This document shows, one piece after another, positions 1 through 3,000 of a stretch of 12,776 nucleotides of DNA. The DNA lies in the IMG/VR virus record IMGVR_UViG_2671180755_000025; one strand, 5' to 3'. The position numbers are program-made. The stretch is from a virus (lineage: Duplodnaviria > Heunggongvirae > Uroviricota > Caudoviricetes). Each line of letters starts with the position of its first letter. Positions within the stretch are counted from its first letter, which is position 1.

Positions 1-3000
1 CTATGCTGTTTTGATATCTACGATAATCCAGTCTTTACCACGATCATCATTGTATCGGTCGGTCATTTTTCTGGATTTATGACCTAACAACTTTTGCGTA
101 TCCAGACCCTGTTCCCGATATAACCGTTCTGACAGAGATCGCTGCTCATGAAATGTGGGCGCAGTTCCTTGCTCCCATTTTATGCCACATTTTTCCCTGG
201 CCTTTTTAAAAGCCGTTGTAAGAGTATTTGCAGACACCTGGTCTCCTCTGTTTGCTTGAGAGGTAGTGTGACGGTAATGGACCAGATATTTACTAACAAC
301 AGCATCCCTGCACTGAGATATAACTTCACGAAGGGTAATATTCAGAGCATCGCATTTCAGGTTAAGCGGAATAGCAAGTTTTGAACCGGTTTTTTCCTGA
401 GTAATGTGCAACATGTCGTCCCAGATATCAGAGAATTTCAAATTGCAGATATCGCTTAAACGTTGTCCAGTGACAAGAGCAAGTAGCATCCCGCATTTTA
501 AATAGGGCTGCCGTCTGCTTACGCTGTCAAATATTGCCTGCCATTCGGGCAGTGATAATCTTTGACGGTTTACTCGATTTCGCGGTTGTTTTGTTGCCTG
601 CGCTGGGTTAAATCCTGGCGGAACATGTCCTGCGTGTTGTGCTTCTTTGAAGACGTCGATCAACACCATTCTCACGACTTGCGCCATCCTGTTATGACCT
701 TCAGCCTTTACAGCATCAATTATTTCGGCAATATCAAGTGCGGTAATATCCTTGAGGTGTTGCATTCCACAATGCTCACGGAAAAGACGGATGGGTTTGC
801 CTTTTTGCCGATAGGAGTTGGGTCTTAGTTCATTATGTTGCAGCCTGTCCTCCTGGATAGAATTATATTTATCAAGCCATTCTGTCACCGTAATGTCTGA
901 GCGCCTGCCTTTCATTCTTTCCAGACGCTCATTGACGCTTAATATTTGTCGGGTACGTTGTTCAGCAATAATGGTATTTGCTTCAGTAGCAACTTGTTTT
1001 GCTTCATTCTCATCAGTTCCTAAGCTATGAAAACGACCGGATAGTGGATGTTTGTATTGCCAATATACCTTTCCGGTTCGCTTATCTAATTTGCAATATA
1101 AATTGGGTATAGAGATTTTGTGAGATCGGGGGCTAGCAGCCATCAGCGATTATCCGTTGGAGTTTTGGGTTTGCGTTTATTGGGAGTTGCGGTTCTGCAA
1201 GCGTTCCTACAAAACGGGAATTTCGGTCAATCATCCAGTAGCGACCAACTTTTATAGCGGGTGGGGCCATCATTTTCCCTTGCGCGTATTTTTTCAGAAC
1301 TCGCTCACTTGGTGCTAAGTCCCCAAATTCTTCTTTAGCCCAGTCCCGTAAAGTGATTAGTCGAGACATTTGTCCTCCTCTTAGCTGCTGAGGGAGTTTG
1401 TGACCGATATATCTGACATGATATTAAGCTCATGGCAGGTACATCTCTTGACTGGTCATAGAGATAAATTTAATGCTGAGAAATGCAGTATTGAATTTAT
1501 CAATTTTTCACCAGCTTCTGGTCTTTCTGGCTGTCATGCGCAAAACATATGGCTTTAATAAAAAACTGGATTGGGTTAGCAACGAGCAACTTTCCGAATT
1601 AACCGGGATATTGCCGCACAAGTGTTCTGCTGCAAAAAGTGTTCTGGTAAAGCGTGGGATTTTTATTCAGAGCGGGCGGAATACCGGCATTAATAATGTG
1701 GTCAGTGAATGGTCAACATTACCCGAATCAGGTAAGAAAAATAAAGTTTACCTGAAAGAGGTAAATTTACCTGAATCAGGTAAAAAAAGTTTACCCAAAT
1801 CAGGTAAAGGCGTTTACCCGAATCAGGTAAACACAAAAGACAAACTAACAAAAGACAATATAAAACCTTTTTCGTCCGAGAATTCTGGCGAATCCTCTGA
1901 CCAACCAGAAAACGATCTTCCTGTGGTGAAACCGGATGCTGCAATTCAGAGCGGCAGCAAGTGGGGGACAGCAGAAGACCTGACCGCCGCAGAGTGGATG
2001 TTTGACATGGTGAAGACCATCGCGCCATCAGCCAGAAAACCGAATTTTGCAGGGTGGGCTAACGATATCCGCCTGATGCGTGAACGTGACGGACGTAACC
2101 ACCGCGACATGTGCGTGCTGTTCCGCTGGGCATGCCAGGACAACTTCTGGTCCGGTAACGTGCTAAGTCCGGCCAAACTCCGCGACAAGTGGACCCAGCT
2201 CGAAATCAACCGTAACAAGCAACAGGCAGGCATGATAGCCAGCAAACCAAAACTCGACCTGACAAACACTGACTGGATTTACGGGGTGGATTTATGAAAA
2301 ACATCGCCGCACAGATGGTTAACTTTGACCGTGAGCAGATGCGTCGGATCGCCAACAACATGCCGGAACAGTACGACGAAAAGCCGCAGGTACAGCAGGT
2401 AGCGCAGATCATCAACGGTGTGTTCAGCCAGTTACTGGCAACTTTCCCGGCGAGTCTGGCTAACCGTGACCAGAACGAACTGAACGAAATCCGCCGCCAG
2501 TGGGTTCTGGCTTTCCGGGAAAACGGGATCACCACAATGGAACAGGTTAACGCAGGAATGCGCGTAGCCCGTCGGCAGAATCGACCATTTCTGCCATCAC
2601 CCGGGCAGTTTGTTGCATGGTGCCGGGAAGAAGCATCCGTTATCGCCGGACTGCCAAACGTCAGCGAGCTGGTTGATATGGTTTACGAGTATTGCCGGAA
2701 GCGTGGCCTGTATCCGGATGCAGAGTCTTATCCGTGGAAATCGAACGCGCATTACTGGTTGGTTACCAACTTGTACCAGAACATGCGGGCAATGCGCTGA
2801 CTGACGCGGAATTACGGCGCAAGGCTGCCGATGAACTGACCTGTATGACAGCGCGAATTAACCGTGGTGAGACGATACCTGAACCAGTAAAACAACTTCC
2901 TGTTATGGGCGGTAGACCTCTAAATCGTGCACAGGCTCTGGCGAAGATCGCAGAAATTAAAGCTAAGTTCGGACTGAAAGGAGCAAGTGTATGACGGGCA

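What the first reader, a model, noticed from the sequence alone, without database searches (positions are those of the whole stretch)
1719..1875. Iteron origin inside the O-like gene, with a different iteron sequence from lambda
Five direct repeats of an ~18-bp unit, each with internal TTACC/GGTAA dyad symmetry, sit in the linker of the O-like gene and are followed by an A-rich tract. This is the lambda ori layout but with a different iteron sequence and five copies rather than the four I recall for lambda. The repeats are also translated as a reiterated LPESGKK-like peptide motif. Because P is frameshifted and O may be truncated, this may be an orphan origin usable only with a helper supplying a matching O specificity.
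Basis: partly seen in the sequence, partly recalled or inferred. Interest (0 to 1): 0.45.

Follow-up and report, generated by a model that had tools for sequence, protein, structure and literature searches.

The report
Orphaned lambdoid phage replication origin
This is the ordinary, well-understood replication origin of a lambda-like phage (five protein-binding repeats plus an easily melted A-rich stretch inside the phage's initiator gene), stranded in a defective E. coli O157:H7 prophage whose initiator gene has lost its front end.

Summary
Five copies of TTACC-N7-GGTAA start at 1719, 1748, 1767, 1791 and 1814, where chance predicts 0.04. A 38-bp A-rich tract follows. Everything lies inside a lambda-O-like gene, directly after its Phage_rep_O domain.

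The window is a defective prophage next to icd in E. coli O157:H7. A clean 7.1-kb deletion fused the xis side to codon 78 of O. It removed exo-bet-gam, cI, cro, cII, with them the early promoters, and 28% of the O DNA-binding domain. P carries a strain-private 1-nt deletion.

The same five-iteron array occurs in full-length O genes of sequenced phages (PhiR47_2, PhiR34_1, 4A7, Perceval) and in about 45% of complete E. coli genomes. Relatives across Enterobacterales keep the lambda spacing (19-20/24/23). Their iteron arms change with the O N-terminal domain, and copy number ranges from 4 to 9.

So this is a lambdoid ori of non-lambda specificity, now an orphan. It is intact in cis but lacks its initiator and its activating promoter. 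Some O157:H7 strains carry a second prophage with an intact matching O and P, so firing in trans is conceivable but untested. Known kind of element; low interest.

The parts
1719..1735 (.). Iteron 1 (TTACCCGAATCAGGTAA). This is the extra copy, 29 bp upstream of the core four. It is read as LPESGK.
   Evidence: It corresponds to a 10-codon insertion relative to lambda/434 O. It is absent from the four-iteron relatives.
1748..1764 (.). Iteron 2 (TTACCTGAAAGAGGTAA). It is read in a different frame as VYLKEVN.
1767..1783 (.). Iteron 3 (TTACCTGAATCAGGTAA). It is read as LPESGK.
1791..1807 (.). Iteron 4 (TTACCCAAATCAGGTAA). It is read as LPKSGK.
1814..1830 (.). Iteron 5 (TTACCCGAATCAGGTAA). It is read as VYPNQVN.
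1831..1868 (+). A-rich, low-stability tract, the presumed unwinding element. It is homologous to the 38-bp AT-rich part of ori-lambda.
   Evidence: 84% identical to the 434/lambda tract. GC 0.30 and AT skew 0.71. Among the least stable 4-5% of 40-mers in the window.
1510..2297 (+). 5'-truncated O (replication initiator) gene. It keeps codons 78-339 of the annotated 339-codon gene. The C-terminal half is lambda-type.
   Evidence: Pfam Phage_rep_O profile positions 28-95 of 95 only. PGAP note 'missing N-terminus'. The C-terminal part is 96% identical to 434/lambda.
1509..1510 (.). Deletion junction. Relative to phage PhiR47_2, 7,123 bp are missing: the rest of DUF4222, exo, bet, gam, kil, gevAT, cI, cro, cII and O codons 1-77.
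   Evidence: The junction is present in 295 of 5426 complete E. coli genomes.
1400..1509 (+). 5' remnant of a DUF4222 gene, fused out of frame to 'O.
2294..2994 (+). P (lambda-type helicase loader) gene. It is frameshifted by loss of one C at about 2789. It is intact in most O157:H7 strains.
1..1369 (-). Integrase (1-1143) and excisionase (1133-1369) of the prophage. The icd gene lies just outside the window.

Best explanation
The repeats are the replication origin of a phage-82-like lambdoid replicon.

How it works in the intact phage:
- Dimers of the O initiator bind the five dyad-symmetric iterons through O's N-terminal winged-helix-type domain and wrap them into an 'O-some'.
- This destabilises the adjacent A-rich tract.
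- The lambda-type C-terminal domain of O recruits P-DnaB to load the host helicase.

The iteron arms (TTACC/GGTAA) define a specificity class different from lambda's (TCCCT/AGGGA). The geometry is the same.

In this window the origin is an orphan. A 7.1-kb deletion removed the first 77 codons of O, which include 27 of the 95 positions of its DNA-binding domain profile. It also removed the cI-cro-cII region, which in lambdoid phages holds pR, the promoter that drives O-P and activates ori. The cis element is therefore intact but dormant. It could fire only if an O of the same class is supplied in trans, together with P, which is frameshifted in this window.

Shown here:
- the anatomy;
- homology to lambda ori;
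- identity to the origins in sequenced phages with full-length O genes;
- the truncation;
- co-variation of iteron arms with the O N-terminal domain.

Inferred, not shown:
- O binding;
- unwinding at the A-rich tract;
- competence for firing in trans.
For: Repeats:
- Five repeats against 0.04 expected, each a dyad.
- The array begins 7 nt after the Phage_rep_O domain.
- Spacing of copies 2-5 is 19/24/23, against 20/24/23 for the four gpO sites annotated in phage 434/lambda.

Mosaic structure against 434/lambda:
- The tract after the last iteron is 84% identical.
- The rest of O is 96% identical.
- The N-terminal coding part and the iterons are only 58% identical. The module boundary therefore lies at the last iteron.

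Occurrence:
- The identical array sits in full-length 339-codon O genes of sequenced phages recorded on laboratory hosts.
- The type is present in 2419 of 5426 complete E. coli genomes.

Conservation acts on the DNA:
- In 106 iterons from about 20 loci of many genera, arm positions are 93-99% invariant. Centres and spacers vary.
- The iterons lie in two reading frames, so it is the DNA rather than the peptide that is conserved.
- More distant O N-terminal domains carry TTAGC/GCTAA or AACCC/GGGTT arms with the same 20/24/23 spacing.

Truncation:
-, plus the PGAP notes.
- No sigma-70-like promoter in 1100-2400.

Helper availability:
- A second prophage in O157:H7 strain 3-5-1 has intact O and P and five identical iterons.

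Literature:
- Definition of ori-lambda and the O mechanism: PMC3349717, PMC7466680.
- O can complement in trans: PMC6022878.
Against: - No experiment shows that an O protein binds this sequence or that it fires. The argument rests on homology and conservation.
- Intactness of the array is not evidence of present use. The deletion is confined to 295 O157:H7-type genomes, and the flanks are 99-100% identical to intact phages, so there has been little time for decay.
- Lambda ori needs nearby transcription from pR even when O and P are present (PMC7466680). The region that holds pR is deleted and no promoter was predicted. Firing in trans may therefore fail.
- I could not establish whether the genome this window comes from holds a matching helper.
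- Sp8 of O157 Sakai, a prophage with this gene profile, showed no circularisation or replication (PMC2669165). I equate Sp8 with this prophage by gene content only.
Confidence: 0.87

Rival explanations
1. Decoy or interference site. The orphan iterons soak up or 'handcuff' O made by a superinfecting or co-resident phage of the same ori class. This would dampen that phage's replication and give mild type-specific exclusion or a brake on induction.
For: - Ectopic ori-lambda iterons on plasmids block replication of rep-lambda phages, and titration or handcuffing of O was proposed as the cause (PMC3349717; PMC4488673).
- Phages and prophages of the matching class are very common: 45% of complete E. 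coli genomes. Some junction-bearing strains carry a second, intact copy.
Against: - The published effects used multicopy plasmids. In PMC3349717 they also required oop transcription, and here the deletion removed cII, which oop overlaps in lambda.
- A single chromosomal copy adds five sites to a system that needs an excess of O.
- The array arose as a by-product of a deletion, with no sign of selection for it.
Confidence: 0.08
2. The prophage is still an autonomous replicon. The 274-codon ORF 1473-2297 would encode a working initiator that uses these iterons.
For: - An in-frame ATG at 1473 gives an open frame through the whole remaining O.
- An in-silico survey scored the replication functions of a prophage with this profile (Sp8) as apparently functional (PMC2669165).
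Against: - The ORF's first 12 residues are foreign, and 27 of the 95 positions of the Phage_rep_O profile are missing.
- PGAP calls the gene incomplete.
- cI, cro and cII are gone, and with them the region that holds pR; no promoter was predicted.
- P is frameshifted in this window.
- Sp8 showed no circularisation or replication (PMC2669165).
Confidence: 0.03
3. The repeats exist for the protein: a reiterated peptide in the O linker. On this view they have no role as DNA.
For: The array is translated, and three copies give LP(E/K)SGK. Expansions stay in frame in relatives.
Against: - The five copies are read in two frames and give two unrelated peptides.
- Synonymous positions inside the arms, such as the A of TTA and the T of GGT, are invariant in 99-105 of 106 iterons from many genera, while the centre and spacers vary.
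- Each unit is a DNA dyad.
- Arm sequence changes together with the DNA-binding domain, while spacing is kept.
Confidence: 0.02

Closest known systems
ori-lambda (phage lambda/434: ITN1-4 plus a 38-bp AT-rich tract inside gene O)
   Same: - It lies inside O, between the origin-binding and P-binding halves.
- The iterons are 17-19 bp dyads (5-nt arms, 7-nt centre).
- Spacing is 19-20/24/23.
- The AT-rich tract is homologous (84% identical).
- The O C-terminal half is lambda-type (96% identical), followed by P and ren.
   Different: - The arms are TTACC/GGTAA, not TCCCT/AGGGA.
- There are five copies, not four, the extra one 29 bp upstream.
- The O N-terminal coding part is only 58% identical at the DNA level.
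- Here the initiator is truncated and the cI-cro-cII region, which holds pR and oop in lambda, is deleted.
Origins of Stx phages 933W and P27 (six lambda-type iterons, 13 extra residues in O; PMC7466680)
   Same: The lambdoid ori has extra upstream iterons that lengthen the O linker. In that system only four iterons are bound strongly in vitro, yet the extra ones matter in vivo.
   Different: Stx phages keep the lambda iteron sequence. This element is a different specificity class with one extra iteron (10 codons).
P22 ori inside gene 18 (annotated rep_origin in OQ031658.1)
   Same: gp18 is 46% identical to this O over the N-terminal part. The half-sites are related (TTTACC...GGTAAA). There are four repeats followed by ACACAAAAGACAAT....
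   Different: The P22 units have a 5-nt centre and are less symmetric. The C-terminal domain differs, and the partner is a DnaB-type helicase (gene 12), not P.
Phage 82 replication origin (sequenced in 1979-81; recalled from memory, not checked)
   Same: The prophage is phage-82-like: its Q gene is 98.4% identical to phage 82 Q. I recall that lambdoid phages 82 and phi80 have type-specific O/ori pairs with the same layout.
   Different: I could not obtain the phage 82 ori sequence. Identity with this iteron class is therefore only a lead.
Iteron origins of plasmids (pSC101 RepA, F RepE, R6K pi)
   Same: It works the same way: a winged-helix initiator binds direct repeats next to an AT-rich unwinding element.
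   Different: There is no sequence relationship. Plasmid iterons are not embedded in the initiator's own coding sequence.

Membership tests
Lambdoid phage origin (ori-lambda type) | Lies inside the initiator gene O, between the origin-binding N-terminal domain and the loader-binding C-terminal domain | tested here: met
   The array starts 7 nt after the Phage_rep_O match. The lambda-type C-terminal half follows.
Lambdoid phage origin (ori-lambda type) | Four or more direct repeats of about 18 bp, each an internal dyad | tested here: met
   Five copies of TTACC-N7-GGTAA against 0.04 expected by chance.
Lambdoid phage origin (ori-lambda type) | Characteristic iteron spacing (20/24/23 in lambda) | tested here: met
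   19/24/23 for copies 2-5. The same core spacing appears in four specificity classes.
Lambdoid phage origin (ori-lambda type) | AT-rich, strand-asymmetric unwinding tract directly after the last iteron | tested here: met
   1831-1868 is 84% identical to the lambda/434 tract and has low duplex stability.
Lambdoid phage origin (ori-lambda type) | Cognate full-length O encoded in cis and a helicase loader gene downstream | tested here: not met
   In this window O lacks 77 codons and P is frameshifted. The feature is met in the intact phages that carry the identical array.
Lambdoid phage origin (ori-lambda type) | Upstream early promoter (pR) that transcribes through ori and activates it | tested here: not met
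   The cI-cro-cII region is deleted. No sigma-70-like site was found in 1100-2400.
Lambdoid phage origin (ori-lambda type) | O protein binds the iterons; replication starts here | not testable with these tools
   This needs EMSA or footprinting and an origin assay.
Phage_rep_O initiators (Pfam PF04492) | Complete N-terminal domain | tested here: not met
   The window ORF matches profile positions 28-95 of 95 (69.6 bits). Intact O from PhiR34_1 matches 1-95 (116 bits).

The most novel reading that the evidence does not exclude
In O157:H7 strains that also carry the second, intact phage-82-like prophage, induction of that prophage supplies O and P that fire the orphan origin in situ. At least 94 of the 295 genomes with this deletion must carry such a second copy. 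Firing would amplify the icd-adjacent defective prophage and its chromosomal flanks, as in escape or 'regional' replication. Alternatively the orphan iterons could act as a sink that tunes the helper's replication. Either way, a dead prophage's origin would be a working part of the prophage-prophage interactions described for O157.
Probability: 0.12. Interest if true: 0.45.

Novelty: already known. Interest (0 to 1): 0.14.

Why it matters
It matters little beyond annotation. The element is a textbook lambdoid origin.

- **Replication status of the prophage.** The icd-adjacent O157:H7 prophage cannot replicate on its own, because its O gene is 5'-truncated. An earlier in-silico survey rated the replication functions of a prophage with this profile as apparently intact.
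- **A scannable rule for lambdoid origins.** Spacing stays at 19-20/24/23, the iteron arms change with the O N-terminal domain, and copy number runs from 4 to 9. This could be used to annotate ori and replication-specificity classes in prophages.
- **A testable interaction.** If the orphan origin responds to a co-resident helper, it would add one concrete mechanism to the prophage-prophage interactions in EHEC.

Tried and rejected
- **Iteron strings in the literature.** Full-text search for the iteron strings found no paper.
- **Phage 82 ori.** Searches for a description of the phage 82 ori or its iterons found nothing usable. The 1979-81 papers are not in the library, so 'this is ori 82' stays a lead.
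- **Solved structures.** No solved structure matches O by sequence.
- **RNA features.** There is no Rfam family and no tRNA in the window, so an RNA reading of the dyads has no support.
- **Promoters.** The promoter scan of 1100-2400 found nothing.
- **Peptide-repeat and autonomous-replicon readings.** Both were considered and rejected. The repeats lie in two frames and conservation is at the DNA level. O is truncated, and cI, cro and cII, with the early promoters between and around them, are deleted.
- **Searches not run.** I did not run the large protein-homology search or AlphaFold. The verdict does not depend on them, and the Pfam profile coverage already shows what the truncation removes.
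- **Helper in the source genome.** I could not determine whether the exact source genome (identical to strain 146N4 over 1100-3400) has the helper prophage.

Full report
**1. The observation**

The region holds five copies of a 17-bp dyad, TTACCYRAAWSAGGTAA. They lie at 1719-1735, 1748-1764, 1767-1783, 1791-1807 and 1814-1830, with start-to-start spacing of 29, 19, 24 and 23. Copies 2-5 extend to 19 bp (TTTACC-N7-GGTAAA). The pattern occurs nowhere else in the window, and 200 dinucleotide-preserving shuffles give 0.04 matches on average. Tandem Repeats Finder reports the same array.

Directly after the last copy comes ACACAAAAGACAAACTAACAAAAGACAATATAAAACC (1831-1868). It has GC 0.30 and AT skew 0.71. 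It ranks among the least stable 4-5% of 40-mers in the window.

By position relative to the ORF start, copies 1, 3 and 4 are read as LP(E/K)SGK. Copies 2 and 5 are read one frame off, as VYLKEVN and VYPNQVN.

**2. Where the window comes from**

Window 1100-3400 is 100% identical to E. coli O157:H7 strain 146N4. It differs by one base from most other O157:H7 genomes.

The genes in order are:
- icd, just outside the window;
- int (1-1143, minus strand);
- xis (1133-1369, minus strand);
- a 'replication protein' that PGAP marks 'incomplete, missing N-terminus';
- 'replication protein P, frameshifted';
- ren, emrE, ybcK, ybcN, ninE, rusA, Q, the lysis genes, bor and nohD/terminase.

Pfam confirms the lambda-type integrase, excisionase, Phage_rep_O and Phage_lambda_P. 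The Q gene is 98.4% identical to phage 82 Q, so this is a phage-82-like lambdoid prophage.

**3. The O gene is truncated by a clean deletion**

Homology to full-length O genes of sequenced phages begins at window 1510. Homology to the int-xis side of the same kind of phage ends at 1509.

Phage PhiR47_2 has both flanks. Relative to it, 7,123 bp are missing (record 1639-8761), with a 1-nt ambiguity at the joint. The missing segment holds the rest of a small DUF4222 gene, exo, bet, gam, kil, gevAT, cI, cro, cII and the first 77 codons of the annotated 339-codon O. Counted from the Met that aligns with lambda O residue 1, 47 codons are lost.

The window ORF matches only positions 28-95 of the 95-position Phage_rep_O profile. 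Intact O matches 1-95. No sigma-70-like promoter is predicted on either strand in 1100-2400.

The junction occurs in 295 of 5426 complete E. coli genomes, and those shown are O157:H7-type.

The P defect is the loss of one C in GGGCC at about 2789. P is intact in strain 86-24 and most other O157:H7 genomes. The frameshift is therefore recent and strain-private, or a sequencing error.

**4. The repeats are a lambdoid ori of a different specificity class**

I compared the window with phage 434. Its record annotates the four lambda-type gpO sites (ATCCCTCAAAACGAGGGA and variants, spacing 20/24/23). The layout is the same: 5-nt arms with a 7-nt centre, and spacing of 19/24/23 for copies 2-5.

| Segment | Identity to 434/lambda |
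|---|---|
| Tract after the last iteron | 84% |
| Rest of O | 96% |
| N-terminal coding part | 58% |
| Iteron array | 58% |

The mosaic boundary thus falls exactly at the end of the last iteron. This is the classical module of origin plus origin-binding domain. The extra first copy corresponds to a 10-codon insertion in O.

The five iterons are base-for-base identical in the full-length O genes of sequenced phages PhiR34_1 and Lambda_4C10; PhiR34_1 is recorded on a laboratory host. The 241-bp ori region is 99-100% identical in these and in PhiR47_2, 4A7 and Perceval. This O/ori type is present in 2419 of 5426 complete E. coli genomes.

**5. Conservation is at the DNA level and tracks the initiator**

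*Close relatives.* Two E. coli prophages about 80% identical in the N-terminal part carry a different C-terminal domain and a DnaC-like ATPase instead of P. They still have five TTACC-N7-GGTAA units at 29/19/24/23 and the A-rich tract.

*Other genera.* A scan of one genome per species found relatives in Enterobacter, Klebsiella, Pseudocitrobacter, Kluyvera, Xenorhabdus, Pantoea, Providencia, Arsenophonus, Sodalis and others.

| O N-terminal domain, identity to query | Iteron arms | Copies | Spacing |
|---|---|---|---|
| Down to about 47% | TTACC/GGTAA | 4 to 9 | Core four at 19/24/23; extras upstream at 29/19 |
| 44-49% | TTAGC/GCTAA | 4 | 20/24/23 |
| 40% (Aeromonas) | AACCC/GGGTT | 4 | 20/24/23 |

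The nine copies in Kluyvera arose by triplication of a 48-bp two-iteron unit.

*Position-by-position conservation.* Over 106 TTACC-type units, arm positions are 93-99% invariant, including synonymous codon positions. Centres and spacers vary. The O frames stay open through the expanded arrays, which shows that this part of the protein is a length-tolerant linker. P22 gene 18, whose ori is annotated, has related half-sites with a shorter centre.

**6. Mechanism**

By homology with lambda (PMC3349717, PMC7466680), O dimers bind the iterons and form an O-some. The A-rich tract then opens, and the C-terminal domain of O brings in P-DnaB.

In this window that machinery is broken. The initiator lacks part of its DNA-binding domain. 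The cI-cro-cII region, where pR lies in lambdoid phages, is gone. P is frameshifted. The cis element itself is untouched.

A matching O is easy to come by. O157:H7 strain 3-5-1 has a second prophage carrying exo-bet-gam, cI, cro, cII, O, P, ren, emrE and ybcK. Its O is full-length, its P is intact, and its five iterons are identical to those in the window. In one search, only 201 genomes lack a place covering the 5' part of O. So at least 94 of the 295 junction-bearing genomes must hold such a second copy. Others, such as 472 and TX 265-1, have only the truncated copy.

O can act in trans in lambda (PMC6022878). But lambda ori also needs nearby transcription (PMC7466680), and none is evident here. 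Trans-firing is therefore possible but unproven.

**7. Rival readings**

- *Decoy role.* It has precedent only for multicopy plasmids that also express oop (PMC3349717, PMC4488673). The deletion here removed cII, which oop overlaps in lambda.
- *Autonomous replicon.* The truncation contradicts it. So does the reported lack of circularisation and replication of Sp8. Sp8 is the Sakai prophage whose profile this one matches: no cI or cro, int and xis present, no Rec genes, full morphogenesis genes (PMC2669165). The equation with Sp8 rests on gene content only.
- *Purely protein-level repeat.* The two reading frames and the invariant synonymous positions exclude it.

**8. Novelty**

This is a known kind of element, in sequence that is already annotated (PGAP flags both gene defects).

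I found no paper that prints this iteron motif. I could not reach the 1979-81 phage 82 ori papers. Given the phage-82-like Q gene, this is probably the long-known ori 82 class, but that is unverified.

Interest is low. The only open biological question is whether the orphan origin responds to the co-resident helper.

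Noticed in passing
window 11419-11435: A run of 17 N (masked or unknown bases) inside the window.
   Followed up: no
window 7367-8056: The Q antiterminator gene is 98.4% identical to phage 82 Q (X92588.1) and 99.3% identical to phage PhiR47_2. The prophage is phage-82-like, and PhiR47_2 is a near-intact relative that shares int-xis, O-P and Q.
   Followed up: partly
window 1400-1558: This is the 5' part of a plus-strand DUF4222 gene (RBS GAGGGAG, GTG at 1400), fused out of frame to 'O by the deletion. 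If that gene has its own promoter, transcription would now run through the orphan origin. An AT-rich 16-bp hairpin followed by a T-run lies at 1463-1501, directly before the junction.
   Followed up: partly
window 2789: The P frameshift is the loss of one C in GGGCC. P is intact in most O157:H7 genomes with the same prophage, and one strain has IS1203 inserted near the 3' end of P instead.
   Followed up: yes
window 3361-3693 and 3938-5464: emrE (SMR efflux pump) and ybcK (large serine recombinase) sit directly after ren. The same arrangement occurs in the sequenced phages PhiR34_1, Lambda_4C10 and PhiR47_2, so emrE travels as phage cargo.
   Followed up: partly
L015 1852-2059 (Kluyvera sichuanensis): Nine iterons produced by triplication of a 48-bp two-iteron unit. 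The O frame stays open and encodes LPESGKKIKPYLKEVN three times. Arsenophonus has 7-8 copies. In Sodalis the O frame is interrupted.
   Followed up: partly
L009 1360-3068; L010 1580-3291: The same origin-binding domain and five-iteron array are joined to a different O C-terminal domain and a DnaC-like ATPase loader instead of P. This is a clear case of module exchange at the end of the ori.
   Followed up: partly
L005 (E. coli O157:H7 3-5-1, 1859202-1869762): A second, apparently complete early region (exo-bet-gam, cI with S24 peptidase, cro, YdaT-like cII, O, P, ren, emrE, ybcK) with five identical iterons. It is present in some but not all O157:H7 genomes.
   Followed up: partly
whole prophage; literature PMC2669165: A published in-silico survey rated O and P as apparently functional in all lambdoid Sakai prophages except Sp3. 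The one prophage whose profile matches this window (Sp8) did not circularise or replicate. The 5' truncation of O found here would explain that. The equation with Sp8 rests on gene content only.
   Followed up: partly
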